Shown: piece by piece, positions 498 to 14,368 of the stretch | Position numbering within the stretch: position 1 is the first letter of the stretch | Layout of the letters: the number at the start of each line of letters is the position of its first letter | DNA from: Nitrososphaerota archaeon | Lineage (GTDB): Archaea > Thermoproteota > Nitrososphaeria > Nitrososphaerales > JACQRY01 | Direction of reading: 5' to 3' | NCBI GenBank assembly: GCA_016184315.1 | Contig: JACPCU010000020.1 | Location: forward strand, 21,025-85,024 | Length of the DNA stretch: 64,000 nucleotides | Notes under the pieces: model-generated | The model's input: only the letters and a program-made list of their open reading frames with translations | Database searches by the model: none | What the model was told of the DNA's origin: nothing | Program-made: the position numbers and the translations under genes

Positions 498-1481
498 ATG
501 AGTGTAAATCTTGAAAAACTTGACGGACATGGGTTTGAGGACCTAATTGAGAAACTCCTGATTAGGATGGGGTTCAAAACTGAGGGTAGGAAACCCACAG
601 CAGACGGAGGGATAGACATTGTTGCTATATCTGAAGAACCAATATTGAAGGGACGATACATTATCCAGTGCAAGAAGTGGCAGAGCCCAGTTTCTGTTCC
701 AGTCATCAGAGATCTCTACGGGGTGGTCAATGCTGAGAATGCTAACAAAGGAGTGTTGATAACAACCTCTAACTTTACTGCTGACGCTATCGAGTTTGCA
801 CGTGACAAGCCCATAGAGCTGATCGACGGTGCAAGATTAGACGAGCTCATTAGACAACACAGCTTATCCGAAACCACTCTAGGAGACAAGGCCATATCAT
901 CGAGACAGGCAGCTGCGGAATCATTGAGAGTAGAACTTTCAGGTCTTTCAGACCGATATAGAAGAAGAATCAATGAGGTAGAAAACAGCCTCAACGTCTT
1001 GCATTCAAAGGGGTTCGGCAGTGAATCGGAAAAGAGAACATACACAGCATACCGAAAGTTTACGCTTGAAGTAATGGAACGGATAGAAAATCGCTTCGTA
1101 GCCGTCTGTAAAAGTACAATAGACAATATGAAAAGTTCGTTAGAAGCTTCTGGGACGGCTAGACAATTAGGAAAACATCTGCAAGAATTAGCCGAATATG
1201 CTTTTGAAACATGGGAAAATATCAGACGTACTAATCCTCCCTCAGAATTTGCTAGATCACACAAAATATTGGAAGGCATTGCAGCACAAATACTGGAGAG
1301 TTTTCTAGATTTCCTGCACCAAGTCGAAGAATCTCTCAGCGACTACCTAACAGAAAAAGGAAAGATTGACCACTCAGTTACACTCAAACTCCACATTCCA
1401 CAATCCGAATGGGACGAGCTTGTGAGTAGTTGGAAAGATGCATACAGTCTAGTTTACAAAAGATTACGAATCACTTTTTAA
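498..1481 (+). CDS. Mrr-cat (PD-(D/E)xK) restriction-endonuclease-domain protein with an unknown helical C-terminal domain
   Basis: The N-terminal ~120 aa carry classic Mrr catalytic-domain motifs: GHGFEDLIEKLL..MGF, DGGIDIVA, YIIQCKKW, GVLITTSNFT. Residues ~125-327 are helical with no motif I recognise. Confidence 0.75.
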   Translation: MSVNLEKLDGHGFEDLIEKLLIRMGFKTEGRKPTADGGIDIVAISEEPILKGRYIIQCKKWQSPVSVPVIRDLYGVVNAENANKGVLITTSNFTADAIEFARDKPIELIDGARLDELIRQHSLSETTLGDKAISSRQAAAESLRVELSGLSDRYRRRINEVENSLNVLHSKGFGSESEKRTYTAYRKFTLEVMERIENRFVAVCKSTIDNMKSSLEASGTARQLGKHLQELAEYAFETWENIRRTNPPSEFARSHKILEGIAAQILESFLDFLHQVEESLSDYLTEKGKIDHSVTLKLHIPQSEWDELVSSWKDAYSLVYKRLRITF

Positions 1482-1503
1482 TAGTTACCTAAGCCAAGCC
1501 TAC

Positions 1504-2496
1504 TCAAGTTATGATCAGAGACTTGACATCTAGCTCCTCAAGAACCTTCAGGTTAGCTTGATCGTAGATTTTCTTCAGTCTCTCAGGAGAATAATCAGAA
1601 TAATGACTAGCCAAGATCGATCTAGGGACTCTGCCACAGAAAAAATCAATCCACCTATCAGCCACACCTAGATCACTCATTTCATTACAGAACCATTCTC
1701 TAAGCATCTGAGCATTGATCTTTACACCAGACTTCTTACTGACACGGCTGAAAGCTCTCTGAGCTCCTCTTATCGAATAGCCAAATAATGTCTTATAGAC
1801 TCCTAACACATTAGTTATTTCTACACGAGCCTCTCGGTTGAAGAAAGCAATAGAAGAATTTCTCTTAGTCTCTCCCCTATGAATATCATTAGACAGCCTA
1901 ACCATATTTCTACTCGGATCAAGTTGATCCGAAGTTATTGAAAGGGCTTCACCTAATCTAAGTCCAGAGGAACTTAAGAATAGGAAAAGTGCCTTGAAAT
2001 GCACTGTATCAACATGCTCGTAAAATCGTTTCAATTCCTGCTTTGACGGGACAATAATCATCTTAGGAGCTGGTCTCACAAGCTTAAAGGACGATACTAG
2101 GTGAGGTGATCTAAGATAGTCTCTGAAAAAGACTCTAAACGACTTAATGTAATTACTCTTAGAAGCTGGTCTATCTTTGTATCCACTAAGAAATGCTCTT
2201 AGATCTTCATTGTTAATCTTTAAGAGAGGTTTATTTATGATCTTGATGAACCTGTTTATCCTCCATAAATGGTGCTCTTTAATGGTGCTCGGTGCTAGTC
2301 CTAAATCAACTTCTAGGTATCGTCTGAAGCCTTCTAGAACATCATCAACATTACTACTTTCCGTAATAGCATTACCAGAAACCGTAACCAGATATGTTAA
2401 AGTCCTAGCATCATAGGGCACACTCTCAAGTAAAAGGGGCTGTCGTCTAGTTTGGTCCAGGATTCCAGCCTCGGGAGCTGGCGACCGTGGGTTCAA
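1504..2496 (-). CDS. tyrosine recombinase / integrase (archaeal integrative-element type)
   Basis: SAM-like N-domain (VLEGFRRYLEVDLGLAPSTIKEH..) and a catalytic domain with Arg (SGLRLGEAL), LREWF box and C-terminal Tyr (ASHYSDY). The ORF runs antisense through 61 nt of tRNA-Pro. An in-frame GTG at 2423 is an alternative start. Confidence 0.85.
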   Translation of the reverse strand: MNPRSPAPEAGILDQTRRQPLLLESVPYDARTLTYLVTVSGNAITESSNVDDVLEGFRRYLEVDLGLAPSTIKEHHLWRINRFIKIINKPLLKINNEDLRAFLSGYKDRPASKSNYIKSFRVFFRDYLRSPHLVSSFKLVRPAPKMIIVPSKQELKRFYEHVDTVHFKALFLFLSSSGLRLGEALSITSDQLDPSRNMVRLSNDIHRGETKRNSSIAFFNREARVEITNVLGVYKTLFGYSIRGAQRAFSRVSKKSGVKINAQMLREWFCNEMSDLGVADRWIDFFCGRVPRSILASHYSDYSPERLKKIYDQANLKVLEELDVKSLIIT

Positions 2497-2511
2497 ATCC
2501 CACCAGCCCCA
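2436..2511 (+). tRNA. tRNA-Pro (anticodon CGG)
   Basis: Cloverleaf read by hand. Acceptor GGGGCTG/CAGCCCC, anticodon stem CCAGC/GCTGG with loop CTCGGGA (anticodon CGG), T-arm GTGGG-TTCAAAT-CCCAC, discriminator A. No encoded CCA. Confidence 0.9.
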
Positions 2512-2554
2512 CTCCGAATCTCTTGTTCCTGCCTGACGCGACCTAACAACTTAT

Positions 2555-2752
2555 TTGATCATGACCAGTACTGAAGCCAAGTTACGCAGGATCGAAGAAA
2601 AATTGGAAGGGCTGGAGGAAACTATCGAAGTCTTGGCAGAACCTAAGTTACTCCGCGGAATAAAGCGGGCGTTAGACGACATTGCTGAGGGTAGATACCG
2701 AGACTACGATGACGTCGAGCAATTTAGAGCTACGTTCGAATCCAAGGTATGA
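2555..2752 (+). CDS. type II antitoxin (RelB/Phd-like) paired with RelE
   Basis: 65-aa acidic helical protein. ATGA stop/start overlap with the downstream RelE-family toxin. Confidence 0.6.
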   Translation: MIMTSTEAKLRRIEEKLEGLEETIEVLAEPKLLRGIKRALDDIAEGRYRDYDDVEQFRATFESKV

Positions 2753-3006
2753 AGTATCGTCTCAGAGTTCCGAACACCTTTGAGCGCGAGTTAAGAAGAC
2801 TCGGTCAGCAAGATAAGGATAGAGTCTGGAAGACTATAGGAGAGATTCAAGAATCTCCGTATTCGTACAAGTTCCTAACAGGACAGCTCACCGGCACTAA
2901 ATCTGCCAGAGTTGGAAATATCAGGATAATATTTGCAATCGACGAGCATGCGAAACGAATATTACTGCTTCACATAGGTTATAGAGGAAAAGTATACGAA
3001 CATTGA
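2749..3006 (+). CDS. relE: RelE/ParE-family mRNA interferase toxin
   Basis: 85 aa with the archaeal RelE pattern: ..ESPYSYKFLTGQLTGTKSARVGNIRIIFAIDEHAKRILLLHIGYRGKVY. Confidence 0.8.
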   Translation: MKYRLRVPNTFERELRRLGQQDKDRVWKTIGEIQESPYSYKFLTGQLTGTKSARVGNIRIIFAIDEHAKRILLLHIGYRGKVYEH

Positions 3007-3237
3007 AGGCTGATATCTGACTTGAGACAATTCTTTGGGCTAGAGTTTTCAAATCTTACCACACCCATTCCTTAAGATAGGTTGCTAGGTGTATAGAATG
3101 ATCGACCTATGGACAGTTGACTTACCATTCTGTAGGCATCATAAGCCAACGCAAAGACAATGAATACAAAAGTCCAAGACCACGTAAAAAGAACACAAGA
3201 GGATGTCGAAGAGATGAACGCCTTGAGTGACAAGTGA

Positions 3238-3411
3238 TCAACGAACTGTCCACGGCTTGAGTAATATGCATCTTGCGGGTGTCATTCCTCTGCCTTCGAC
3301 GACTATCTCTGTTGCCCTGTGACCATCTGTGTAGGAAACAACTCTTTCAGAAACTTTCTTCCTACAGTAGCACACTATCTTTTCACCAATGATCTCCTGA
3401 CGCTCAGTCAA
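3238..3411 (-). CDS. hypothetical small protein (57 aa, not in the ORF track)
   Basis: TTG start preceded by a strong SD (GGGAGGAAG, ~8 nt spacer). Overlaps by TTGA the stop of a possible 43-aa upstream ORF (3408-3539). No homology recognised. Confidence 0.3.
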   Translation of the reverse strand: MTERQEIIGEKIVCYCRKKVSERVVSYTDGHRATEIVVEGRGMTPARCILLKPWTVR

Positions 3412-3637
3412 TGTTTACTTCCTCCCATTAATGGGACTTCGTATGTTGCTTCCGCTGCTTTACCCTTCTTGCGAAGCCGCTCCAAAGCTTCCAGCACCTC
3501 TAATACTGATATCCAGTACCCATCTGCGCCGTTGCTCACATTAGGTAGGCATCGCTACCACTCTGCCCGTGTAAGACTGCTCAGTAGACTGCGGCGTTAT
3601 CGATCAATTTATAGAAGACCAAGAAACAAGGAAAACC

Positions 3638-3826
3638 ATGCCAGTAGTTCAAGTTGAAATGTGGACGGGGAGAACCGACGGAGAGAAGGAGAAATTGATG
3701 AAGGGCATATCAAAAGCCTTCGAAGAAATCGGAGTGAAGCCGGAAAGACTGACGATAATCATCCATGAAAACCCGAAGAGCAACTGGGGCACGGGAGGAC
3801 AGCCAGCGTCGAAGACGAGTCACTAA
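3638..3826 (+). CDS. 4-oxalocrotonate tautomerase family protein
   Basis: 62 aa starting Met-Pro (catalytic Pro1). MPVVQVEMWTGRT..EKEKLMKGISKAFEE..G.KPE...IIIHE matches the tautomerase family pattern. Confidence 0.8.
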   Translation: MPVVQVEMWTGRTDGEKEKLMKGISKAFEEIGVKPERLTIIIHENPKSNWGTGGQPASKTSH

Positions 3827-4034
3827 CAACCTCGTCCCATCGCAAAACAAAAATGTATTCTGCCACTTCGGCAGGAAAACAGACTTAACGTGGGAACTCG
3901 AAAGCTACGGCTTTTCTACGTCTTCATGGTAATGCTTCTCGCCGTTTTCCCAAATGGAACATATTGCCCTTATGGGCAAAAGCATCTATTGACAATACGC
4001 GGTCAAGTGAGGCAGATAGAATTAAGCCGACATA

Positions 4035-4058
4035 GGTTCAAATCCCAACGGGCCCACT
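4035..4058 (+). repeat. orphan tRNA-Pro-like 3' fragment (T-loop to discriminator), putative att remnant
   Basis: GGTTCAAATCCCAACGGGCCCACT matches tRNA-Pro 2490-2513 at 21/24 positions. No matching 5' acceptor strand (GGGCCCG) within 200 nt upstream, and the 5' T-stem does not pair. Confidence 0.5.
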
Positions 4059-4139
4059 TGCGCACATGGACCCAATAGCTTAGGTCTTGCATTTTTATTC
4101 GCAAGGCTTATAAGTCGTCCACACACATACACACACAGA

Positions 4140-4373
4140 ATGGGAACGAAGAACATAGCTATCTCCGAAGAGGCCTACCAAAGACTCAAAGCTATAAGGA
4201 AGCCTAGGGAAAGCTTCACCGAGGTCATCGAGAGAATCACCCGCAGCAGAAGCATCCTAGAGTTGGCGGGTGTGTTGTCGAAGACCGAAGGGGCTGAACT
4301 GAAGAGCATGATCAAAAAAATTCGCGCGGAACGCTCTAAACGGATACATGAGACAATCCAAAGGTTGCACTGA
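4140..4373 (+). CDS. vapB: VapB-type antitoxin (COG1753/DUF217-like)
   Basis: 77 aa. The N-terminus KNIAISEEAYQRLKAIRKPRESFTEVIERI is typical of archaeal antitoxins paired with PIN toxins. Sits immediately upstream of vapC. Confidence 0.7.
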   Translation: MGTKNIAISEEAYQRLKAIRKPRESFTEVIERITRSRSILELAGVLSKTEGAELKSMIKKIRAERSKRIHETIQRLH

Positions 4374-4375
4374 GC

Positions 4376-4768
4376 TTGCTTGTCGATACCACCTTCATAA
4401 TCGACATTATGCTTAACGATAAAGCTGCAATTAGAAAAGCGCAAGAGCTGGCTGACACATCCACCCCTCTAATTGTTGGAGCCCCAACCATATTCGAACT
4501 GTATGTCGGAGTCGGATTAAGCGTGAAGTCCCAAGAGGAGAAAGTAAAGATTCTTGATGTACTAAAATCGCTTACTCACCTGCCTCTAGACAACCAGTCA
4601 GCGTCAAGAGCCGGACTTATCTACGCTGAAAGAACCAGACAAGCTAGAAAGATCGATACCGAAGACGCAATGCTGGCAGGCATTGCCATTGAAAATCACC
4701 AGCCATTGCTCACTAGAAACATAAAGGATTTCGCCGGAATATCCGAGCTAAGAGTCGAAAGCTACTAG
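4376..4768 (+). CDS. vapC: PIN-domain ribonuclease toxin VapC
   Basis: 130 aa. N-terminal LVDTTFIID (first acidic PIN residue), later conserved acidic residues (DTEDAMLAGIA), C-terminal LLTRNIKDF. Confidence 0.85.
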   Translation: MLVDTTFIIDIMLNDKAAIRKAQELADTSTPLIVGAPTIFELYVGVGLSVKSQEEKVKILDVLKSLTHLPLDNQSASRAGLIYAERTRQARKIDTEDAMLAGIAIENHQPLLTRNIKDFAGISELRVESY

Positions 4769-4936: not shown

Positions 4937-5097
4937 CTTGGAAAAGCTGTGAAAGAAATATTTGCGAGATCACAAAGACGAATAAGAGTTGAAAGAAGAA
5001 TCTTTACCGCTTTGTTGAGGCTTTCCTTAGAAGCCCAGAACTTGGCTGTTTTAAGACGGCTAAGAAAGCTGGCACACTGTTTGTCGGATTTGCGGAC

Positions 5098-5397
5098 GTG
5101 ATTGGTGTCAGAGAAGTAGGAGGAGATGTCAGAGGCGTCGTGATTGACAGAACAAACCCACGGAACATGCTATCAAATCCCAACTGGAGGCAAAAATTGG
5201 ACCTAATTACTTCTAGATTTGAGGAGCACCGTACTCGCGTCGAAATTGCAGTTCGAAGCAAGGAGATTTATCTACGCTCGGATGGATTCTATGCTTTTCG
5301 AAACACTGAATTTCCTGAGGAGATCGATGCTATGAGAATGTCAATAGTCCTATTATTCAATGAATTGTTAAAAGAGGCAGGGATTCGAACCTATTAG
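5098..5397 (+). CDS. hypothetical protein
   Basis: 99-aa ORF of balanced composition. The frame stays open upstream to 4993 without a canonical start. No motif recognised. Confidence 0.35.
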   Translation: MIGVREVGGDVRGVVIDRTNPRNMLSNPNWRQKLDLITSRFEEHRTRVEIAVRSKEIYLRSDGFYAFRNTEFPEEIDAMRMSIVLLFNELLKEAGIRTY

Positions 5398-5660
5398 AGG
5401 AATTAGGACTTTCGGAAATGGCAGTCTCTTGTGGATGCCCCCCGTAAAAACCTCAATCACGCATTTCTCGACGGCGTTTCTTCTCTTTGCAAAAGACGCA
5501 AAATGACCTGAGTCTTTCCGATCACAATAGAGAGATAAGCAGATATCATACAGCTCAATGCGCAGAATTACCCGTTGTTATAAGTAAATGCAAACAGCCC
5601 TTGTTTTAAGTTTGTAGCATGACTTAGCTTAAATAGTTTAGACAATATTTCACCGGCGTC

Positions 5661-7727
5661 ATGCAGCCCTCCTCCAAACGCGTCAAGGGCATCTTCTCCG
5701 TCATCGCGTCTCCCAACCGCCTTGAGATACTCCGAATCCTGAACACCCGCGGACCCCTAAGCTACTCAGACCTGAAAATGATGGCAGGATTCAAATCAAA
5801 AAAAGAGTCAGGAAAATTTGCCTACCATCTACGCAAACTCGTCAGAGTAGCACTCGTCTCACTCAACAGATCTGAAAGAAAATACATAGTCACCAACCTA
5901 GGAAGATTGGTGCTCAACCAAGCTAGGCAGCTCGAAGAGCAATCGATGCTGGAGAGCGGACGCCTCTACGTGCGCACATCCAGACAAATGATGGAGGAGT
6001 TCAACGCAGACCGCATCCTCCAATCCCTTGTAAGAGAATCAGGCATGCCCATGGACCTAGCTCAAAGAATAACCAGCGAAGCAGAGCAACGCCTACACAA
6101 ATTCCAAACAAACTATCTGACAGGCCCACTAATACGCGAACTAGTCAACGCCCTCCTAATAGAACAGGGCCTTGAAGAATACCGCCACAAACTCACCAGA
6201 CTAGGTCTGCCCGTCTACGATGTAACCCAACTGGTAGACAAAGCCGGGGAATCAGGACAAGGAGTAGGCGCGTTGATCGAGACCACTGCAAGAGCAGTAC
6301 TATCAGAATACTTGCTTCTTGCTCGCCTACCGAAAGACGTCGCGGACGCCCATCTGAACGGCGATATTCACATAGCCAGAGCAGGAGTTTGGGGACTCAA
6401 GCCTGACAACATCTTCGTAGACGCTGCAACTTTGGCTGACTTCTCTTTGAAGGGCAGGGTTCTGCAGGCTCCCCGATTGAAGCCGGCTGAAGACTTGGAT
6501 GGCGCGTTGAGCCATTTCGCAAACGCGTCACTTCTGATTTCAAGGGAGGCTGCCGTTGAAGCATGCTTCGAAGGACTAGCGCCCTACTTGGCCAAGTACT
6601 CGAACGGATCCGGAGAAGACCTGCGTAGAAGTCTCAGGCGGACCCTGTTTGAAATGGGTGTGGCTGCCAGCAGGCATGGTGACGACGGCTTCATCACCCT
6701 TGTAGCCAAAAACAGCGGCGAAGAAGATGAACGTAGAATAGTCGATGTTCTCATAGGTGCATACGGAGACTACGTTGAAGCCACTCCAAACCCAATGATC
6801 AAACTGGTCTACCACGACGTAGACGGAGGAAGCAAACAACAGCTACCCGAGGGCCTTGTAAACCTGGTAGCTCAGGGAGTGGACATAGCTGTCTGCAGAG
6901 GCCCCCGAGCCCGATCATACATCGGCCTAGCCAAGAACATTCTGCCAGCAGAGATCTCCTCAGGCTTCTCCTCTGTGCACTCATTGTCCGTTAATCTACC
7001 GAGACTCTCCTACGAATCCAGCAAAGATGACACCTACTTCAAAGCCAAGTTGGCGATGCAGCTCAACATAGCCGTCCAAGCATTAGACAACAGGAGAAGG
7101 ATGATGAACGAGTCAACCAAAAAAGGACTCCTCCCAACACTATCATCCAACCCCAGCATCGTCACCATGGAAACAATGCCTCTGTTCGTCAACCTGATCG
7201 GCCTGGACGACGCCTTGGCTCAGCTAGCCGGAGACAAAGCAACAGGCTCCACAAGAAACAAGATGGTTGAAGGAATAGTTCAAACAGCCCTGAAAGTCTC
7301 GGCTGACAGAGGCCTAAAGATAGGCGAAACCATCGGCGTATCTATTCTCGAAGACGACTCCGCGTCAAGGTTCGCAGCAATAGACGCTGACCGCTACGGC
7401 AAACTAGGAAGCGGCCCCACAGGAGGAAAACACTACAGCCACGGCGCCGTACTCTCTTCAGAAGATCTGGATGACGCGGAAACAGTGGAACGAGTCAGCA
7501 TGCTTTCAACCAAGCTGAACGGAGGCTTCCACGCCTCCTTCACACCTGACAAAGGCGAAGCCCTTGCTGAACTGATGGCCAAGGCGAACAAACATCTGTC
7601 CTATTACCGCGTTCAGCCCAAACAATCTATCTGCAAGAACTGCGGCGCAAAGATGATCGGATATGTCGGCAGATGCAGAAATTGCAGATCAATGAGCCTA
7701 ATCCATGCCCCAATGCCCGAAAATTGA
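5661..7727 (+). CDS. wHTH (ArsR-like) + ATP-cone + class III RNR (NrdD)-like domain protein lacking the glycyl-radical C-terminus
   Basis: aa 10-95 form a winged helix (NRLEILRILNTRGPLSYSDL..FAYHLRKL). aa ~100-190 form an ATP-cone (RLYVRTSRQMMEEFNADRILQSL..). The core carries AHLNGDIHIARAG (compare the NrdD GxIHIHD box). C-terminal CxxC..CxxC ribbon, then the protein ends 11 aa later. Confidence 0.7.
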   Translation: MQPSSKRVKGIFSVIASPNRLEILRILNTRGPLSYSDLKMMAGFKSKKESGKFAYHLRKLVRVALVSLNRSERKYIVTNLGRLVLNQARQLEEQSMLESGRLYVRTSRQMMEEFNADRILQSLVRESGMPMDLAQRITSEAEQRLHKFQTNYLTGPLIRELVNALLIEQGLEEYRHKLTRLGLPVYDVTQLVDKAGESGQGVGALIETTARAVLSEYLLLARLPKDVADAHLNGDIHIARAGVWGLKPDNIFVDAATLADFSLKGRVLQAPRLKPAEDLDGALSHFANASLLISREAAVEACFEGLAPYLAKYSNGSGEDLRRSLRRTLFEMGVAASRHGDDGFITLVAKNSGEEDERRIVDVLIGAYGDYVEATPNPMIKLVYHDVDGGSKQQLPEGLVNLVAQGVDIAVCRGPRARSYIGLAKNILPAEISSGFSSVHSLSVNLPRLSYESSKDDTYFKAKLAMQLNIAVQALDNRRRMMNESTKKGLLPTLSSNPSIVTMETMPLFVNLIGLDDALAQLAGDKATGSTRNKMVEGIVQTALKVSADRGLKIGETIGVSILEDDSASRFAAIDADRYGKLGSGPTGGKHYSHGAVLSSEDLDDAETVERVSMLSTKLNGGFHASFTPDKGEALAELMAKANKHLSYYRVQPKQSICKNCGAKMIGYVGRCRNCRSMSLIHAPMPEN

Positions 7728-7843
7728 CAAGAAGATTGAACTAGAAAAGTCAGTCATGAGACGATCAGTTCTTGTCAATAACGTTTCGTCTCAACGTATG
7801 ATCACTGTAGCGAAGAACAGGTAAACTTTTTTTCAACCGAACC

Positions 7844-7855
7844 ATAGATATATCT
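7844..7855 (+). promoter_or_regulatory. TATA-like palindrome upstream of nrdJ
   Basis: ATAGATATATCT lies ~25 nt upstream of the TTG start at 7877, which fits a near-leaderless archaeal promoter. Confidence 0.35.
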
Positions 7856-7876
7856 GCTCATCGTCGGGGGTTTGCT

Positions 7877-10800
7877 TTGTCCACTGAGGGCTATCGATCA
7901 GAAACCAAAAGTGAACTGTTAGGTGACCAAGGACTAAAGATCCAAAGACAGTTCACCAAACAGGGAGAAAACATCTACGACATGTTTGACTGGGAAAAAC
8001 GTCCTTCGGTCATAAGGAACCCTGATGGCAGCATAGTGTTTGAAATGCCTGACGTGGAGGTTCCTAGATTCTGGAATCAGACTGCCACTGACGTCCTTGC
8101 ACAGAAGTATTTACGTAAACGAGGCGTACCGCAGCTAGACAAAGACGGCAAACCTGTCCTTGACGCCAACGGTAACCCCGTCCTAGGATCAGAAACATCC
8201 CTCAAACAAATCGTGCATAGACTTGCCGGCTGCTGGACTCACTGGGGGAAGAAGTACGGCTACTTCGCCTCCGACGCCGATGCTCAAGCCTTCTACGATG
8301 AAATTGCCTACATGCTGACCAACCAGATGGCTGCCCCCAACTCTCCTCAATGGTTCAACACAGGTCTAAACTGGGCCTACGATATTACCGGACCAGCCCA
8401 AGGCCACTACTTTGTTGACCCAGACGCAAAGCAGCTCACCGCCTCCAAAGACGCTTACTCGCATCCCCAAGTGCACGCATGCTTCATCCAACCAATAAAA
8501 GACGACTTGGTGAACGAAGGAGGAATAATGGATCTATGGGTCAGAGAAGCCAGGATCTTCAAGTACGGCAGCGGTAGCGGCACCAACTTCTCCACCCTCC
8601 GAGCAAAAGGAGAAACCCTGTCAGGAGGAGGAATCTCCTCCGGAGTCATGACCTTCCTGAAGATCGGCGACCAAACCGGAGGCGCCATAAAGTCAGGAGG
8701 AACCACTAGAAGAGCAGCTAAGATGGTCATACTCAACATCGATCACCCGGAGATAGAAGACTTCATCACATGGAAGGTAAACGAAGAGAAAAAGTTCGCA
8801 GCACTGGTGCACGCAGGACTCGCTCCAAGCACCATGGAGGCTGCAGGTGACCACGTCTTCGGACAACACTCCAACAACTCTGTCAGAGTTACTGACGAGT
8901 TCATGAAAGCTGTTCTAACTGATGGCCAGTGGAACCTGACATGGAGAAGCGGCGGAGTCGCCAAGACCGTCAAAGCAGCTGACCTGTGGAATAAGATCGC
9001 GGAGTCCGCGTGGGCCTGCGCTGACCCTGGGCTTCAATACGACACCACGATAAACGACTGGCATACATGCCCATCGTCAGGCAGAATCAACGCGAGCAAC
9101 CCTTGCTCAGAATACATGTTCCTTGACAACACTGCGTGCAACCTTGCATCCATCAATCTAACCAAATTCTTTGACCCTGCAACCAAGATGTTCGACGTGC
9201 AGGCCTTCACCCACGCCGTCCGGCTTTGGACTATCGTCTTGGAGCTGTCAGTGCTGCTGGCCCAGTATCCCAGCAAAGAAATCGCTCAGAGAAGCTATGA
9301 AACCCGAACCCTAGGCTTAGGATTCACCAACCTAGGTTCAATGCTAATGATTGCAGGAATACCCTACGACTCAGACAGAGCCAGAGCCATATGCGGCGCA
9401 TTATCAGCCATAATGACCGGAGAAGCCTACGCGACGTCAGCAGAAATAGCCAGTTTCCTCGGCCCCTTCCCCGACTATCAGAAGAACCGTGAACACATGC
9501 TTGAAGCCATCAGGAATCACCGTCGCGCAGCCTACAACGCTAGGCCCGAGGAGTACGATGGTCTCCACACAATTCCCGTAGGCCTCGACCAGAAGAACTG
9601 CCCCCAGTACATTGTGATCTCAGCCATGGATGCTTGGGACAGGGCTCTAGCTCTAGGCGAAAAATACGGGTACAGGAACGCTCAGGCAACCCTGATCGCT
9701 CCTACCGGAACCATAAGCTTCGTCATGGGCGCTGACACTACCGGCATCGAGCCTGACTACGCCTTGGTCAAGGTGAAGAAGCTCTTCGGAGGCGGCTACT
9801 TCAAAATCATCAACAAATCCGTCATGGCTGCACTGAAGAACCTTGGCTACAGCGAGGAGCAGATCGATGACATCATCAAACACGTGATAGGGGCCAACTC
9901 TCTGAAAGATGCGCCTCACATAAACGACGTTACTCTGAAGGTGAAAGGCTTCAGCGAAGAAGACATCCGCAAAATGGAGGACGCCCTGCCCACAGTATTC
10001 GATGTTCAGCAGGCTTTCACAGTGCACGTCCTAGGCAAGGAGACCTTGGAGAGACTGGGCTTCACGTCACCCCAGTATAACTCGCCTTCCTTCAACCTGC
10101 TAAAGTCCATGGGTTTCCCAGAGACTGAAATAGAGAAGGCCAACGAATATGTCTGCGGCACCCAGACAGTTGAAGGAGCACCGCACCTCAAAAAGGAGCA
10201 CTACCCCGTCTTCGACTGCGCCAACAAGTGCGGCCCCAAAGGCAGAAGGTTCATCGACTACATGGCTCATGTCAGGATGATGGCTGCTGCCCAACCCTTC
10301 CTATCAGGATCCATCAGCAAGACCATCAACATGCCCAACGAGGCCACCGTCACAGACGTGCAGAGAGTCTACTTGGAGGGGTGGAGGCTGGGACTCAAGT
10401 CGCTGGCCGTCTACCGGGATGGAAGCAAGATGGTTCAACCTCTCACCACGGGAGTAGAAGAAAAGGAAGAATCAAAAGTCGTCTACAAGGCTGTGAGAAG
10501 ACGCCTCCCCGACGAGCGAACCTCGATAACACACAAATTCAAGATCGGGAACCAAGAGGGTTATCTCACAGTGGGCCTCTACGAAGACGGCAAGCCCGGC
10601 GAACTGTTCATCACCATGTCCAAGCAGGGCAGCACCCTGTCAGGGCTCATGGACGCCTTCGCCACATCCGTCTCAATAGCTCTGCAGTACGGAGTACCCC
10701 TAGAAGTCTTGGTGAACAAATTCATTCACACAAGGTTTGAGCCATCAGGCTGGACTAATAACCCCCAGATCAGATCAGCGAAGTCGATAACGGACTACAT

Positions 10801-11056
10801 CTTCAGGTGGATGGCCATGAAGTTCCTCCCGAAGGAATCTCTGGTTGAAGTCGGGCTCAACGCCAACGAATCCCATAACGGCAACGGGGAGGAGCTGGCT
10901 AAGCCCGAGGCAGCTGGATCGGAGAGGTCTTTGGATTCTAGGAGATTCGACGTCAGGTCTGATGCTCCTGCATGCAAGGACTGCGGCTCACTGATGATGC
11001 GGAGCGGAGCCTGCTACCTGTGCACCGTGTGCGGAAGCACCAGCGGATGCTCCTAA
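7877..11056 (+). CDS. nrdJ: adenosylcobalamin-dependent (class II) ribonucleotide reductase
   Basis: 1059 aa. Contains HACFIQPIKDDL, FKYGSGSGTNFSTLRAKGE, GGTTRRAAKM, SNPCSEYMFLDNTACNLASINL and a C-terminal CxxC..CxxC tail. Confidence 0.95.
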   Translation: MSTEGYRSETKSELLGDQGLKIQRQFTKQGENIYDMFDWEKRPSVIRNPDGSIVFEMPDVEVPRFWNQTATDVLAQKYLRKRGVPQLDKDGKPVLDANGNPVLGSETSLKQIVHRLAGCWTHWGKKYGYFASDADAQAFYDEIAYMLTNQMAAPNSPQWFNTGLNWAYDITGPAQGHYFVDPDAKQLTASKDAYSHPQVHACFIQPIKDDLVNEGGIMDLWVREARIFKYGSGSGTNFSTLRAKGETLSGGGISSGVMTFLKIGDQTGGAIKSGGTTRRAAKMVILNIDHPEIEDFITWKVNEEKKFAALVHAGLAPSTMEAAGDHVFGQHSNNSVRVTDEFMKAVLTDGQWNLTWRSGGVAKTVKAADLWNKIAESAWACADPGLQYDTTINDWHTCPSSGRINASNPCSEYMFLDNTACNLASINLTKFFDPATKMFDVQAFTHAVRLWTIVLELSVLLAQYPSKEIAQRSYETRTLGLGFTNLGSMLMIAGIPYDSDRARAICGALSAIMTGEAYATSAEIASFLGPFPDYQKNREHMLEAIRNHRRAAYNARPEEYDGLHTIPVGLDQKNCPQYIVISAMDAWDRALALGEKYGYRNAQATLIAPTGTISFVMGADTTGIEPDYALVKVKKLFGGGYFKIINKSVMAALKNLGYSEEQIDDIIKHVIGANSLKDAPHINDVTLKVKGFSEEDIRKMEDALPTVFDVQQAFTVHVLGKETLERLGFTSPQYNSPSFNLLKSMGFPETEIEKANEYVCGTQTVEGAPHLKKEHYPVFDCANKCGPKGRRFIDYMAHVRMMAAAQPFLSGSISKTINMPNEATVTDVQRVYLEGWRLGLKSLAVYRDGSKMVQPLTTGVEEKEESKVVYKAVRRRLPDERTSITHKFKIGNQEGYLTVGLYEDGKPGELFITMSKQGSTLSGLMDAFATSVSIALQYGVPLEVLVNKFIHTRFEPSGWTNNPQIRSAKSITDYIFRWMAMKFLPKESLVEVGLNANESHNGNGEELAKPEAAGSERSLDSRRFDVRSDAPACKDCGSLMMRSGACYLCTVCGSTSGCS

Positions 11057-11072
11057 GACAACCATTTAACCA

Positions 11073-12074
11073 CTAGGATCGGAAGTCAATATCTTCGTTG
11101 AGGATCAGGGCTATCAACGCAGCTCTCAGAGTCTTCCCGTAGTGGGCTTGCTGGAAGTATCTTGCCTGTGGAGCCGAGTCTACTTCAGCCTTGATTTCCC
11201 CTGCTCTTGGCAAGGGGTGCATGACGATCAGACTGTCCTTAGCTTTGTCGAGGGTTGACCGGTCAACCACGTAGATTCCCCTGACCTTCTCGTATTCCTG
11301 GGGGTCGGGGAAGCGTTCCCTCTGAATCCGGGTCATATACAGTACATCTGCGGCGCTGATAACCTCCTCCATGGAGCGGTGCTGGCTGATCTTCATCCTG
11401 TTCTCCAAGTCGTAGAGGGCCTCCTCTCTGATCCTTAGTTGCGGAGGTGAAACTAGGAAGACCTGGGGCTCAAACCTAGCCAATGCGTACAGGAGGGAGT
11501 AGACTGTGCGTCCGTACTTCAGGTCTCCTACTATCGCTATGTTGAGGCCGTCTATCTTGCCCTTCTCCTTCATGACGGTGTAGAGGTCTAGCATGGCTTG
11601 GGTGGGATGCTCCTCGGTTCCGCTTCCAGCGTTGATCACGGGCTTGGAGGCTACTTCGGCTGCGAAGCGGGCTGCGCCATCGCTGGGGTGTCGTAGGATG
11701 ATTATGTCTGAGTATCCTTCAAGTATCTTCACTGTGTCGGCTAGGCTTTCGCCTTTCTCGACGGAGACTGAGTGGGGATCCGCGAAGCCTATGGATGATC
11801 CTCCTATGGAGAGCATCGCAGCCTCGAAGCTGAAGATGGTTCGGGTGCTGGGCTCGTAGAAGAGCATAGAGAGGACTCTGCCTTCACCGATCTTCTGTTT
11901 TTTGGAAAGGGGTAGGCTGCTGATACGGTCTGTGGCTTCGAAGAGGCCTTCGAAGTCGTATCTGTCGAGGTCCTTTATGGATACTATGTCTCTGTTGTAG
12001 AAACGGTTTTTCAAGAGTCTGCATGACTGTGCCGCGGGTCGGCTTAAAAGCTTGGCGACTAGGAGCTCAAACAA
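11073..12074 (-). CDS. pyrB: aspartate carbamoyltransferase catalytic subunit
   Basis: Contains FYEPSTRTIFSFE, HPTQAMLD and HPLPR. The true start is probably the in-frame TTG at 12014 (MKNRFYNRDIVSIKDL). Confidence 0.95.
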   Translation of the reverse strand: MFELLVAKLLSRPAAQSCRLLKNRFYNRDIVSIKDLDRYDFEGLFEATDRISSLPLSKKQKIGEGRVLSMLFYEPSTRTIFSFEAAMLSIGGSSIGFADPHSVSVEKGESLADTVKILEGYSDIIILRHPSDGAARFAAEVASKPVINAGSGTEEHPTQAMLDLYTVMKEKGKIDGLNIAIVGDLKYGRTVYSLLYALARFEPQVFLVSPPQLRIREEALYDLENRMKISQHRSMEEVISAADVLYMTRIQRERFPDPQEYEKVRGIYVVDRSTLDKAKDSLIVMHPLPRAGEIKAEVDSAPQARYFQQAHYGKTLRAALIALILNEDIDFRS

Positions 12075-12077
12075 CGT

Positions 12078-12596
12078 ATGCTGGCCGGATCGGCGAAGGC
12101 TTATAGCGCCATATTATTTGATCATATGTCGATGTCGCAAGAGGAGCTTCTCGTCAGAAGAATCAAAGAGGGCACCGTCCTAGACCACGTTGAGGCAGGC
12201 AGAGCCCTTAGAGTCTTGACTGCTTTGGGCATCAAAGGAGAGGACGGCAACATAGTAACAGTAGCTATGAATGTTTTGAGCAGTAAGATGGGCAAGAAGG
12301 ATATTGTTAAGATCGCTGACAGGTTTCTGAGCCAAGAAGAGTCAGATCGGATTGCTCTGATCGCTCCTAGGGCTACTGTCAACCTAATACGGGACTACCG
12401 GGTCGTCGAGAAGCGCGTCGTCCACCTGCCAAAAACGTTCGTCAACATTTTCCGCTGCCCTAATCCCACCTGTATCTCTAATTCACCTGAACCTATTGTT
12501 CCTGAGCTCCAAGTTCTAAGGGCGGATCCGCCTACGTTAAAATGCAAGTACTGCGCAAGGCTGCTGTACCCCGTCGATGTCCTCTCAAACCAGTGA
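12078..12596 (+). CDS. pyrI: aspartate carbamoyltransferase regulatory subunit
   Basis: Contains LLVRRIKEGTVLDHV, KDIVKI and a zinc domain (CPNPTCISN..CKYC). The likely true start is the ATG at 12126. Confidence 0.95.
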   Translation: MLAGSAKAYSAILFDHMSMSQEELLVRRIKEGTVLDHVEAGRALRVLTALGIKGEDGNIVTVAMNVLSSKMGKKDIVKIADRFLSQEESDRIALIAPRATVNLIRDYRVVEKRVVHLPKTFVNIFRCPNPTCISNSPEPIVPELQVLRADPPTLKCKYCARLLYPVDVLSNQ

Positions 12597-12881: not shown

Positions 12882-13214
12882 TTACGCGGCGCTACCCAAG
12901 ATCAGGATTGCGATGACAATACCGTAGATCGCGAGTGCTTCACCGAGGGCGGTGATGATGATCGCAGTAGTCCTGATTTCAGGGCGTTCTGCTGTTCCTG
13001 CTAGGCCCGCAGAACCTGCTCTTCCAATGGCTAATCCTGCTGCAATCGCAGATAGACCGAAGGCTATGGCTGCGCCGATGAACTTGTTGGATGCTGGATC
13101 TGCTGGAAAGAACCCAGCATAAGACTGGGGTGTTTGCGCCAGAGCTGGGAGAAACGGCAGAGATGATACGAGCAACGATAGTCCGTAGAGAATGTACCTT
13201 ACAAGAGTTCTCAT
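12882..13214 (-). CDS. atpK: A-type ATP synthase proteolipid subunit K (c)
   Basis: Gly/Ala-rich hairpin AIAFGLSAIAAGLAIGRAGSAG..ITALGEALAIYGIVIAILIL with the ion-binding Glu. Has an N-terminal hydrophobic extension. Confidence 0.9.
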   Translation of the reverse strand: MRTLVRYILYGLSLLVSSLPFLPALAQTPQSYAGFFPADPASNKFIGAAIAFGLSAIAAGLAIGRAGSAGLAGTAERPEIRTTAIIITALGEALAIYGIVIAILILGSAA

Positions 13215-13579: not shown

Positions 13580-13909
13580 TTAGACTCTGAATAGTTCTCT
13601 TGTCCGACGATTGACCTCCCCTTTAAGGATCGGTCCGAGTTCACCGATCTCCCCTAGAATGAGGCTCTTCAGCACAGTTGCAACCTTGTCCAGCTTTACT
13701 ACAGAAGGCACCTTAAGTCCAGTCAGCCCGTACTCAGGGTGACTCTGTTCTATGATAACATCATGACGGGCAGGTTTCTCGGGCATCTTGGAAGAAATGA
13801 ACGCAACGATAACATCTGCTCTTCCCTCGTATATCACAAGGGCAGGCCGAAGCTTCGTTGAAGTCAGATCTGTGAAGGGAAACGGTATGAGAACAAGTTT
13901 TCCCTTCAT
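13580..13909 (-). CDS. mazF: PemK/MazF-family toxin
   Basis: 109 aa. N-terminus GKLVLIPFPFTDLTSTKLRPALVI is the MazF/PemK signature. Confidence 0.85.
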   Translation of the reverse strand: MKGKLVLIPFPFTDLTSTKLRPALVIYEGRADVIVAFISSKMPEKPARHDVIIEQSHPEYGLTGLKVPSVVKLDKVATVLKSLILGEIGELGPILKGEVNRRTRELFRV

Positions 13910-14258: not shown

Positions 14259-14368
14259 CCTTTTTCCAGCCGTTCGCTTACCATCTTCTCGTACTCCGCG
14301 TACTTGGCCTTAAGACTGCTCTTGGCCTGCTCAAACTTCTTGTTTACAACATCTTCAGCTTTGCTCAT
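14228..14368 (-). CDS. small (46 aa) helical protein translationally coupled to atpD; candidate small ATPase subunit (crenarchaeal epsilon-like)
   Basis: Not in the ORF track. Its ATG overlaps the atpD stop (ATGA). Sequence MSKAEDVVNKKFEQAKSSLKAKYAEYEKMVSERLEKGKSEAVRSFS. Its position between atpD and the proteolipid gene matches the small subunit gene in Sulfolobus-type operons. Confidence 0.5.
   Translation of the reverse strand: MSKAEDVVNKKFEQAKSSLKAKYAEYEKMVSERLEKGKSEAVRSFS

What the first reader, a model, noticed from the sequence alone, without database searches (positions are those of the whole stretch)
5661..7727. wHTH + ATP-cone + NrdD-like pseudoenzyme directly upstream of nrdJ: candidate archaeal nucleotide-sensing RNR regulator
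Seen in sequence: one 688-aa ORF joins four parts. These are an ArsR-type winged helix (aa ~10-95), an ATP-cone (aa ~100-190), a ~450-aa region with class III RNR-like features (AHLNGDIHIARAG versus the NrdD GxIHIHD box), and a C-terminal CxxC..CxxC ribbon. The protein ends 11 residues after the last Cys. Established knowledge: in genuine NrdD the glycyl-radical motif (RVCGY-type) follows the Zn ribbon. That motif cannot be present here, and Cys is scarce in the core. The gene lies 150 nt upstream of, and co-oriented with, the B12-dependent RNR. Inference: bacteria regulate RNR with NrdR (Zn ribbon + ATP-cone), for which archaea have no recognised equivalent. This fusion would join a DNA-binding domain to an ATP/dATP sensor and a catalytically dead substrate/effector-binding RNR shell.
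Basis: partly seen in the sequence, partly recalled or inferred. Interest (0 to 1): 0.6.

Follow-up and report, generated by a model that had tools for sequence, protein, structure and literature searches.

The report
Dead RNR turned archaeal gene regulator
An ammonia-oxidising archaeon carries, directly upstream of its ribonucleotide reductase gene, a copy of the anaerobic reductase that has lost its catalytic residues and gained a DNA-binding domain; it is probably an undescribed archaeal regulator of DNA-precursor synthesis.

Summary
ORF 5661-7727 encodes a 688-aa protein with four parts: an ArsR-like winged helix, an ATP-cone, a class III RNR (NrdD) barrel and a Cys4 zinc ribbon. It ends 149 nt upstream of nrdJ.

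It cannot be an enzyme. The glycyl-radical tail is absent, and both the thiyl-radical Cys and the second active-site Cys are substituted. No nrdG lies in the window.

It is not a one-off. At least 597 species matched the family pattern. All 80 loci retrieved are Nitrososphaerota, and all 77 with enough sequence have an RNR directly downstream on the same strand.

About 750-aa relatives, one traced to Bathyarchaeota, keep a tail without the radical Gly. They sit upstream of a genuine nrdD (22 loci) or a class II RNR (3), often near pyrBI. Aigarchaeal forms are shorter. None of 191 HTH-bearing members has the glycyl motif. A rough tree puts them all in one clade, sister to archaeal NrdD.

The regulator-to-RNR spacers carry a spacing-specific dyad, GTCAA-N5-6-TTGAC-like, in 35 of 77 loci against 3 of 162 controls. 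The window has only GTCAA half-sites.

Best reading: a pseudoenzyme transcription factor that controls RNR, analogous to NrdR but not a member. DNA binding and nucleotide sensing are inferred, not shown. I found no paper describing it.

The parts
5661..7727 (+). Whole gene: 688-aa wHTH + ATP-cone + NrdD-like pseudoenzyme + Zn ribbon
   Evidence: ORF. Pfam and NCBIfam hits. 100% identical to a Thaumarchaeota MAG protein annotated 'helix-turn-helix domain-containing protein'.
5691..5915 (+). Winged helix-turn-helix (aa 11-85). The recognition helix 'ESGKFAYHLRKL' lies at about aa 47-62.
   Evidence: DUF7347 37.1 bits and HTH_20. Weak match to SmtB, E 0.062. The model has helices at 6-15, 18-30, 35-42 and 47-62 and a wing at 66-77. 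G51, Y55 and H56 are invariant. The recognition-helix motif was chosen as the most conserved peptide for locus retrieval.
5967..6194 (+). ATP-cone (aa 103-178) of the 'VRTS' type
   Evidence: PF03477 at aa 103-174. 29/29 family members match it. The model shows a beta-hairpin plus four helices. It is homologous to the inner cone of Methanocaldococcus NrdD. V104, F114, I119, E126, I158 and R159 are invariant.
6246..7610 (+). NrdD-like alpha/beta-barrel core (aa about 196-650) without the radical apparatus
   Evidence: PF13597 at 94.6 bits. Foldseek top hits are all NrdD. Profile against PDB gives E 5.8e-38. The catalytic Cys residues and loop 2 are substituted.
7632..7685 (+). C-terminal Cys4 zinc ribbon (C658, C661, C672, C675). 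The protein ends 13 aa later with no glycyl-radical domain.
   Evidence: C658, C661 and C672 are invariant and C675 is at least 90% conserved. The ribbon aligns with the NrdD ribbon. 178/191 family members keep it.
5629..5644 (+). Putative own promoter: TATA-like TTAAATA (5629-5635) followed by TTAGACA (5638-5644), a one-mismatch TTGACA half-site
   Evidence: Sequence. In relatives, 23 of 39 regulator promoters with a TATA-like word are followed within 12 nt by a TTGAC-like word. In control intergenic DNA the figure is 0 of 84.
7723..7779 (.). Perfect 11-nt inverted repeat ATTGACAAGAA / TTCTTGTCAAT with 35 nt between the arms. The right arm is conserved box 1 (GTCAA at 7774-7778).
   Evidence: the repeat finder I2. 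GTCAA is invariant in the 13-locus alignment.
7820..7826 (+). Box 2: GGTAAAC (GGTCAAC or TGTCAAC in relatives), about 22 nt upstream of the nrdJ TATA box
   Evidence: G122, T123 and A126 are invariant in alignment A2.
7844..7853 (+). nrdJ TATA box ATAGATATAT
   Evidence: TATAT is invariant across 13 loci. It lies about 25-30 nt upstream of the TTG start at 7877.
7877..11056 (+). nrdJ, class II (B12-dependent) RNR with a TSCPD domain and no ATP-cone; the presumed regulated target
   Evidence: Ribonuc_red_lgC E 8e-135, Ribonuc_red_2_N and TSCPD. NF005122 1244 bits against a cutoff of 859; TIGR02504 NrdJ_Z 606 bits against 400.

Best explanation
The gene encodes a transcription factor derived from an archaeal class III ribonucleotide reductase.

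Origin (inferred): an NrdD that carried a 'VRTS'-type ATP-cone was duplicated. The copy gained an N-terminal ArsR-like winged helix and lost the glycyl radical, the thiyl Cys and loop 2. In the thaumarchaeal branch it also lost the whole glycyl-radical tail.

Proposed mechanism (inferred):
- The NrdD-like barrel serves mainly as a dimerisation scaffold.
- The barrel places two wHTH domains on GTCAA-type half-sites in the spacer upstream of the RNR promoter. A half-site also lies just downstream of the TATA box of the gene's own promoter.
- Adenine-nucleotide binding (ATP versus dATP) to the cone repositions the cone, as it does in real NrdD enzymes. Because the wHTH is attached to the cone, this would change DNA binding.
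- RNR transcription would thereby be coupled to the dNTP pool.

It would work like NrdR without being related to it in its DNA-binding part.

Shown: the architecture, the catalytic death, the conservation, the synteny with RNR genes of two classes, and the conserved non-coding dyads. Inferred: DNA binding, the target, the ligand, and the sign of regulation.
For: Architecture and fold.

Catalytic death: an alignment with E. coli and Methanocaldococcus NrdD shows Ec C384, C175 and loop 2 substituted, and no C-terminal R[IV]xGY. 0/191 HTH-bearing homologues have a glycyl motif. 0/83 in the sister-clade loci have one. No hidden frame exists. No nrdG or second nrdD lies in the 64-kb window.

Selection: intact full-length orthologues at 40-66% identity occur in at least 597 species.

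Synteny:
- An RNR lies directly downstream on the same strand in 77/77 Nitrososphaerota loci with enough sequence.
- In the ~750-aa sister clade, the next RNR downstream is a genuine NrdD with R[IV]TGY and no HTH in 22 loci, often behind a small CxxC redoxin gene.
- In that clade it is a class II RNR in 3 loci.
- pyrB/pyrI are frequent neighbours.

Single origin: an NJ tree places all HTH forms in one clade, sister to archaeal NrdDs.

cis elements:
- GTCAA is the most enriched 5-mer in the regulator-to-RNR spacers, 3.05x over other intergenic DNA.
- An unbiased Gibbs sampler converges on TTGTCAA.
- The exact dyad GTCAA-N5-6-TT[GC]A[CT] occurs in 35/77 spacers against 3/162 controls. At other spacings it occurs 0-1 times. 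It is found in both Nitrosopumilaceae-type loci (13/32) and the others (22/45).
- Conserved boxes appear in the alignments.
- A TTGAC-like word follows the regulator's own TATA in 23/39 promoters against 0/84 controls.

Precedent for cone repositioning by ATP and dATP in NrdD: PMC12662201 and PMC11226230.
Against: - There are no experimental data of any kind.
- The window's own spacer lacks the exact dyad. It has one TTGTCAA box, a second inverted copy 35 nt away that overlaps the stop codon, and a degenerate box 2.
- The motif statistics are inflated by relatedness among the loci. The Gibbs matrix (PWM) was trained on the same set that it scored.
- GTCAA is not enriched in the sister-clade loci. 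That test is confounded by a gene lying in the spacer.
- The conserved boxes lie 20-100 nt upstream of the TATA box, so the sign of regulation (activation or repression) cannot be read off.
- The cone lacks the canonical Lys-Arg pair (V-R-T-S instead of V-x-K-R), so nucleotide binding is uncertain.
- About half of the sister-clade loci with enough sequence show no RNR within 3-4 kb downstream.
Confidence: 0.6

Rival explanations
1. It is a working anaerobic (class III) ribonucleotide reductase, as many database records call it.
For: The best Pfam and NCBIfam hits are NrdD. JGI and NCBI name many homologues 'anaerobic ribonucleoside-triphosphate reductase'. The fold is NrdD.
Against: Scores are far below every NrdD equivalog cutoff (82.5 against 326 bits). 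There is no glycyl-radical motif, no thiyl Cys, no second Cys and no loop 2. No nrdG lies in the window. In the sister clade a genuine NrdD sits next to the HTH form. The first 100 residues are a DNA-binding domain.
Confidence: 0.02
2. It is a nucleotide-sensing protein partner of the RNR (or of aspartate transcarbamoylase). It would regulate enzyme activity by protein-protein contact, for example by supplying in trans an ATP-cone that the window's NrdJ lacks. The wHTH would serve as a protein-interaction or dimerisation module rather than a DNA reader.
For: The window's NrdJ has no ATP-cone. RNR alpha subunits form dimers, and an NrdD-like shell could in principle contact an RNR. Tight co-localisation is equally expected for a subunit. 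ATP-cones supplied by a different subunit are known (NrdB cones, PMC5794259, listed).
Against: The partner RNR varies: class II with or without its own cone (L006 has one), or class III. This is hard to reconcile with one conserved protein interface. The recognition helix of the wHTH is the most conserved element. Spacing-specific dyads are conserved in the adjacent non-coding DNA. The two genes have separate promoters.
Confidence: 0.12
3. It is a DNA-binding regulator, but a broader one for nucleotide metabolism (pyrimidine synthesis via pyrBI, or replication genes). The RNR would be only one target or an incidental one, and the ligand need not be ATP/dATP.
For: pyrB/pyrI lie next to the gene or the RNR in the window, in marine relatives and in many sister-clade and aigarchaeal loci. 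In some of those there is no RNR in between. The cone is non-canonical.
Against: In Nitrososphaerota the invariant neighbour is the RNR (77/77), not pyrBI. No GTCAA box was seen in the window's pyrB-pyrI region. The conserved dyad is in the RNR spacer.
Confidence: 0.2
4. It is an evolutionary relic, a decaying nrdD copy without a present function.
For: There is progressive loss of NrdD features from the ~750-aa forms to the thaumarchaeal and aigarchaeal forms.
Against: Full-length intact ORFs of constant length occur in hundreds of species at 40-66% identity. They have invariant residues in the wHTH, the cone and the ribbon. The genomic position is fixed.
Confidence: 0.02

Closest known systems
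NrdR (bacterial RNR repressor; Zn ribbon + ATP-cone)
   Same: It joins a DNA-binding module to an ATP-cone. It is genetically tied to RNR genes. The predicted logic is the same: the adenine-nucleotide state of the cone decides DNA binding at paired boxes upstream of nrd genes (PMC9110341, PMC12176259).
   Different: The DNA-binding module is an ArsR-like winged helix, not an N-terminal Zn ribbon. It carries an extra ~450-aa NrdD-derived barrel plus the NrdD C-terminal ribbon. The cone is of the VRTS type, without the K-R pair. The candidate boxes are GTCAA dyads, not NrdR boxes. It has a different evolutionary origin and is found in Nitrososphaeria and Bathyarchaeia.
NrdD, class III anaerobic ribonucleotide reductase (for example Methanocaldococcus NrdD, T4, T. 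maritima, P. copri, S. thermophilus)
   Same: It shares the barrel fold, the GDIH and NLPR motifs, the Cys4 ribbon and the adjoining ATP-cone. It is 29% identical to Methanocaldococcus NrdD over 406 aa.
   Different: It has no glycyl-radical domain or motif, no thiyl Cys, no second Cys and no loop 2. It has an added wHTH. It occurs in aerobic ammonia oxidisers, with no activase in the window.
Enzyme-derived transcription factors such as NrtR (Nudix-like domain + wHTH; PMC2330246, listed)
   Same: The principle is the same: a catalytically impaired copy of a pathway enzyme fused to a winged helix regulates that pathway, and databases misannotate it as the enzyme.
   Different: The enzyme family, the pathway and the domain order (HTH N-terminal here) are different. 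No ligand or operator has been demonstrated here.
ArsR/SmtB-family winged-helix repressors
   Same: The N-terminal ~90 aa match HTH_20, HTH_5 and DUF7347, and weakly match SmtB.
   Different: No metal-sensing sites were examined. The sensor here would be the fused cone and barrel.

Membership tests
Class III RNR (NrdD) | PFL-like ten-stranded alpha/beta barrel with NrdD sequence signature | tested here: met
   PF13597 94.6 bits. The 36 best Foldseek hits are all NrdD. Profile against PDB gives E 5.8e-38.
Class III RNR (NrdD) | C-terminal glycyl-radical motif (RVxGY) after the Zn ribbon | tested here: not met
   The protein ends 13 aa after the ribbon. No motif appears in any downstream frame. 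0/191 family members have it.
Class III RNR (NrdD) | Thiyl-radical Cys on the finger loop (E. coli C384 / T4 C290) | tested here: not met
   The aligned position is Ala or a gap in the window protein and is non-Cys in all 29 family members aligned. The window's C412 nearby is not conserved. A looser count over 191 homologues finds some Cys within 45 aa before the NLPR motif in 39 of them, the window's C412 included.
Class III RNR (NrdD) | Second active-site Cys (E. coli C175 / T4 C79) and loop 2 (xRGGQ) | tested here: not met
   Both are substituted. The alignment is at low identity, so exact columns carry some uncertainty.
Class III RNR (NrdD) | Dedicated radical-SAM activase NrdG in the genome | tested here: inconclusive
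   No NrdG-like hit in the 64-kb window (best E 3.6). The rest of the genome was not available.
Class III RNR (NrdD) | Score above NCBIfam equivalog cutoff | tested here: not met
   TIGR02487 82.5 bits against a cutoff of 326.
NrdR | N-terminal Zn-ribbon DNA-binding domain | tested here: not met
   The N-terminus is a wHTH. The only ribbon is C-terminal and aligns with the NrdD ribbon.
NrdR | ATP-cone that binds ATP/dATP | tested here: inconclusive
   The ATP-cone fold and profile match are present. The canonical K-R is replaced by R-T-S. Binding is not testable here.
NrdR | Binds paired boxes upstream of nrd operons | not testable with these tools
   Conserved GTCAA dyads and boxes lie upstream of the RNR, but occupancy is unknown. 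The motif is not an NrdR box.
ArsR/SmtB-like winged helix | wHTH fold with recognition helix and beta wing | tested here: met
   DUF7347 is above its cutoff. HTH_20 matches 27/29 members and HTH_5 matches 9/29. The model shows the helices and the wing. SmtB matches at E 0.062.
ATP-cone (PF03477) | Beta-hairpin lid plus four-helix bundle, profile match | tested here: met
   25.5 bits here (cutoff 25.8). 29/29 members match at E<=0.01, with a best of 9.9e-13. Secondary structure at aa 103-178 agrees.

The most novel reading that the evidence does not exclude
This family would be the long-missing archaeal counterpart of NrdR. It would be a pseudo-RNR that reads the dNTP/ATP pool through its retained cone, and perhaps through remnants of the barrel. 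It would directly control transcription of whichever RNR the cell uses (class II in aerobic ammonia oxidisers, class III in anaerobic Bathyarchaeia), and possibly pyrimidine synthesis. It would have been inherited vertically since before the split of Bathyarchaeia and Nitrososphaeria.
Probability: 0.5. Interest if true: 0.8.

Novelty: new variant of a known kind. Interest (0 to 1): 0.68.

Why it matters
Control of RNR transcription in archaea is largely unexplained. NrdR is rare there (PMC9110341).

This family is present in apparently every retrieved ammonia-oxidising archaeon, a group of global importance for the nitrogen cycle, and in relatives traced to Bathyarchaeota and Aigarchaeota. If it is the RNR regulator, three things follow:
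- It gives a directly testable handle on dNTP homeostasis and replication control in these organisms.
- It is a clean example of an enzyme paralogue recruited as the regulator of its own pathway.
- It offers a natural experiment on what an ATP-cone and an RNR barrel do once catalysis is removed.

There is also a practical point. Many database records call these proteins 'anaerobic ribonucleoside-triphosphate reductase'. This wrongly implies anaerobic dNTP synthesis in metabolic reconstructions of aerobic Thaumarchaeota.

Tried and rejected
1. The k-mer AACTGATC, frequent upstream of the regulator, turned out to be the conserved 3' coding end of the upstream gene in Nitrosopumilaceae. I dropped it.

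2. GATC/GATCA repeats are about 1.4-2x enriched, with spacings near 10 and 21 nt. They occur in the window at 7763-7767 and 7800-7804. They are absent from many loci. I kept them only as a side note.

3. I looked for the same GTCAA enrichment in the sister-clade loci and found none. The spacer there is mostly a small redoxin gene, so the test says little.

4. Rfam scan of 5000-8200: no RNA family, for example no riboswitch.

5. The sigma-70 and terminator scan is not informative for an archaeon.

6. I searched the window for nrdG, a second nrdD and radical-SAM motifs. There was nothing. The one CxxxCxxC ORF is an ATP-synthase subunit.

7. No GTCAA box lies in the pyrB-pyrI region of the window.

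8. TTGTCAA is not significantly over-represented in the window as a whole: 16 occurrences against 9.6 expected, and 4/100 shuffles reach 16.

9. Seven full-text literature searches and look-ups in papers on RNR phylogeny, the RNR database and NrdR found no description of this architecture. The library lacks most subscription journals, so absence is not proof.

10. I could not map the P. copri specificity-site residues onto the family, because the numbering was inconsistent. Only the loss of loop 2 is claimed.
Full report
**1. What is there**

The window has an ATG-initiated ORF at 5661..7727 on the + strand, encoding 688 aa.

Pfam finds four elements:
- An N-terminal winged helix: DUF7347 at aa 11-85, 37.1 bits against a cutoff of 27.6, plus ArsR-like HTH_20.
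- An ATP-cone at aa 103-174: 25.5 bits, a hair under the 25.8 cutoff.
- The anaerobic RNR family NRDD: 94.6 bits against a cutoff of 26.2.
- A short C-terminal zinc ribbon.

NCBIfam's NrdD equivalog models match only weakly (TIGR02487 at 82.5 bits against a cutoff of 326).

The next gene, 7877..11056 on the same strand after a 149-nt spacer, is a B12-dependent class II RNR. It has a TSCPD domain and no ATP-cone. pyrB, pyrI and the A-type ATP synthase operon follow.

An AlphaFold model built on a 29-sequence alignment is confident (pLDDT 85.9, pTM 0.74). It shows the following:
- A wHTH, with helices at 6-62 and a wing at 66-77.
- A long connecting helix.
- A beta-hairpin plus four-helix cone at 103-178.
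- A large alpha/beta domain.

Its 36 best PDB matches are all class III RNR structures (E 3.5e-21 to 6e-13). A family profile hits PDB NrdD sequences at E 5.8e-38 to 1e-27. All 29 diverse members scanned match NRDD, DUF7347 and ATP-cone.

The protein ends 13, not 11, residues after the last Cys. It has six Cys in all, four of them in the ribbon.

**2. It is not an enzyme**

I aligned the protein and 28 relatives with two reference sequences:
- E. coli NrdD, read from the K-12 genome.
- Methanocaldococcus NrdD, a hit of the representative search, with its intein removed.

The alignment shows the following:
- The GDIH and NLPR motifs and the Cys4 ribbon line up.
- The thiyl-radical Cys (E. coli C384, in 'MGCRSF') is replaced.
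- The second active-site Cys (C175) is replaced.
- Loop 2 ('ARGGQ') is gone.
- The thaumarchaeal proteins stop right after the ribbon, where real NrdDs continue into 'RVCGY' or 'RITGY'.

No reading frame after the stop codon hides such a motif. This disposes of the frameshift refuter.

Among 191 HTH-bearing homologues of at least 520 aa, none has a glycyl-radical motif, and 178 keep the ribbon.

The window contains no NrdG-like gene and no second NrdD. The rest of the genome could not be checked.

**3. It is a large, old, conserved family**

The word-indexed search returned more than 5000 significant hits. The best are 45-67% identical and of the same length. Where named, they come from Thaumarchaeota/Nitrososphaerales MAGs. 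They carry inconsistent names: 'ArsR family transcriptional regulator', 'helix-turn-helix domain-containing protein' or 'anaerobic ribonucleoside-triphosphate reductase'.

The exhaustive representative search gave 1122 cluster representatives at E<=1e-3.

A scan of one genome per GTDB species found at least 597 species with a relative. The 80 best all carry Nitrososphaerota-type or generic 'archaeon' titles, including Nitrososphaera, Nitrosopumilus, Nitrosarchaeum, Nitrosotalea and Nitrosotenuis.

Two further forms exist:
- About 750-aa proteins, for example RLI06026.1 from Bathyarchaeota. They retain a C-terminal tail homologous to the glycyl-radical domain, but the Gly position holds N, K, S, R, T and other residues.
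- 545-600-aa proteins from Aigarchaeota/Caldarchaeum. These have lost even the ribbon.

A rough neighbour-joining tree (no support values) places all HTH-bearing forms in one clade, with Aig and Thaum together. That clade is sister to archaeal genuine NrdDs.

The cone is of the same 'VRTS' type as the inner cone of Methanocaldococcus NrdD. The same VRTS motif occurs in some of the genuine NrdDs that lie next to sister-clade regulators.

The simplest history is one duplication of an archaeal nrdD plus a wHTH fusion, followed by stepwise loss of catalytic parts.

**4. Genomic context**

In four initial contigs and then in all 77 Nitrososphaerota loci with enough downstream sequence, a class II RNR gene follows directly on the same strand. 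The gap is about 100-450 nt.

I retrieved 80 metagenomic loci for the ~750-aa sister clade. The pattern there is as follows:
- In 22 loci the next RNR downstream is a genuine NrdD with an R[IV]TGY motif and no HTH.
- That NrdD usually lies behind a small CxxC redoxin gene resembling NrdH or glutaredoxin.
- In 3 loci the downstream gene is a class II RNR.
- pyrB/pyrI are frequent neighbours.
- About half of the loci with at least 2.5 kb of downstream sequence show no RNR there.

One of the short (565-aa) forms is divergent from pyrB.

A pseudo-NrdD with a DNA-binding head therefore sits next to the working RNR whatever its class. This is the strongest argument for a regulatory link.

**5. Candidate operators**

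The recognition helix ('ESGKFAYHLRKL') is the most conserved segment of the protein. The locus-retrieval tool picked it as the pattern. A conserved DNA site is therefore expected.

In the spacers between the regulator and the RNR:
- GTCAA is the most enriched 5-mer relative to other intergenic DNA of the same loci (3.05x, present in 72/78).
- A Gibbs sampler started at random converges on TTGTCAA plus an A/T tract.
- An alignment of 13 Nitrososphaerales-type spacers shows an invariant GTCAA (box 1; window 7774-7778).
- The same alignment shows a second GGT[CA]AAC box about 22 nt upstream of an invariant TATA box (window 7820-7826 and 7844-7853).
- Nitrosopumilaceae share a 'GGTGTCAACAAAATTGA' block about 45 nt upstream of their TATA box.

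Both clades fit an inverted dyad. The exact pattern GTCAA-N5-6-TT[GC]A[CT] occurs as follows:

| Set | Loci with the dyad |
|---|---|
| Regulator-to-RNR spacers, all | 35/77 |
| of which Nitrosopumilaceae-type | 13/32 |
| of which others | 22/45 |
| Control intergenic chunks | 3/162 |
| Regions upstream of the regulator | 3/80 |
| Spacers, at any other spacing tried | 0-1 |

The looser TGTSAA-N6-TTSACA pattern with up to 2 mismatches gives 38/77 against 9/162.

At the regulator's own promoter, a TATA-like word is followed within 12 nt by a TTGAC-like word in 23 of 39 cases. For control TATA-like words the figure is 0 of 84. This is a position typical of archaeal repression, which hints at autoregulation.

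The window itself has no exact dyad. It has the following instead:
- TTGTCAA at 7772-7778.
- A perfect 11-nt inverted partner at 7723-7733, overlapping the stop codon.
- A degenerate box 2.
- TTAGACA after its own TATA box.

These statistics are not corrected for shared ancestry, and the Gibbs matrix was scored on its training set. They are suggestive, not proof.

**6. How it probably works**

Shown:
- The architecture.
- The loss of catalysis.
- Purifying conservation.
- RNR synteny across two RNR classes.
- Conserved spacing-specific dyads.

Inferred:
- The NrdD-like barrel dimerises as NrdD does and presents two wHTH domains to GTCAA half-sites.
- The cone binds adenine nucleotides.
- ATP or dATP repositions the cone, as in S. 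thermophilus and P. copri NrdD (PMC12662201 and PMC11226230). This would move the attached wHTH and switch DNA binding, coupling RNR transcription to the dNTP pool.

The cone keeps the Glu (E112), the K/R (R118) and the C-terminal Y-R-H...R helix motif. It has V-R-T-S where canonical cones have V-x-K-R, so ligand binding is plausible but uncertain.

Loop 2 and the effector-readout Asn are lost in the thaumarchaeal clade.

The upstream position of the boxes does not tell whether the protein activates or represses.

**7. Comparison with known systems**

Functionally the closest is NrdR, which combines a DNA-binding module with an ATP-cone and controls nrd genes. This protein fails NrdR's defining N-terminal Zn ribbon and has a different origin. 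It is therefore an analogue, not a member.

It is a member of the NrdD superfamily by fold and descent, but it fails every catalytic criterion.

It resembles enzyme-derived regulators such as NrtR in principle.

Seven full-text searches and five paper look-ups found no description of this architecture. The library is incomplete, so prior description elsewhere cannot be excluded.

**8. Verdict**

This is a real feature.

I rate it a new variant of a known kind: an ATP-cone-bearing, RNR-linked transcription factor built on a dead RNR.

My confidence in each claim:

| Claim | Confidence |
|---|---|
| Not an enzyme | about 0.95 |
| DNA-binding regulator | about 0.75 |
| RNR is a direct target | about 0.65 |
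| Adenine-nucleotide sensing by the cone | about 0.5 |

Interest: 0.68.

Noticed in passing
window 498-4768: The DNA upstream of the regulator looks like an integrated element. It holds an Mrr-type restriction endonuclease (498-1481), an archaeal phage-type integrase (1504-2496, minus strand) whose 5' end overlaps a tRNA-Pro(CGG) at 2436-2512, and a PIN-domain toxin (4376-4768).
   Followed up: partly
L004 about 5790-5925; L014, L019, L024 at the equivalent place upstream of the regulator: In several relatives a tRNA-like 3' end (GGTTCAAATCCGGGCGACCCCA) lies directly upstream of the regulator gene. ARAGORN calls no tRNA there, so it may be an intron-containing thaumarchaeal tRNA. The window lacks it at that position and has a 99-aa ORF without a Pfam match (5098-5397) instead.
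   Followed up: partly
window 13580-13909 (-): A PemK/MazF-type toxin gene, with a small upstream ORF, sits between the ATP-synthase c subunit (12882-13214) and D subunit (14365-15009) genes.
   Followed up: no
window 7877-11056; L006 8432-11017: The window's NrdJ starts with TTG, has a C-terminal TSCPD domain and has no ATP-cone. The RNR of a marine relative (L006) has an N-terminal ATP-cone and no TSCPD hit. The regulator therefore accompanies RNRs with and without their own activity site.
   Followed up: partly
L095, L107, L108, L114, L124-L127, L131, L134, L137, L158 (between regulator and nrdD): In many sister-clade loci a ~110-aa CxxC redoxin (NrdH/glutaredoxin-like, 'VVYTSxGCxKC') lies between the regulator-like gene and the genuine nrdD. 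This suggests a regulator-redoxin-nrdD unit.
   Followed up: partly
window 11073-12596; L006, L089, L090 and many of L093-L168: pyrB and pyrI (aspartate transcarbamoylase) recur next to the regulator or RNR pair across Thaumarchaeota, the sister clade and a short (565-aa) form. This hints at a wider nucleotide-metabolism neighbourhood or regulon.
   Followed up: partly
window 7763-7767 and 7800-7804; L063, L073, L074, L076, L080, L081 spacers: GATCA words recur in the regulator-RNR spacers (about 2x enriched). In Nitrosarchaeum-type loci they appear as GATCA-N17-GATCA-N15-GATCA. Their meaning is unknown.
   Followed up: partly
P0262 (Methanocaldococcus bathoardescens NrdD, 1297 aa): This genuine archaeal NrdD has two cones, a canonical 'VIKRD' cone followed by a 'VRTS' cone. 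It also carries a large intein inserted after 'TQTPAES'.
   Followed up: no
database names: Many orthologues in aerobic ammonia oxidisers are labelled 'anaerobic ribonucleoside-triphosphate reductase' or 'ribonucleoside-triphosphate reductase (formate)' by NCBI and JGI. This is a systematic misannotation.
   Followed up: yes
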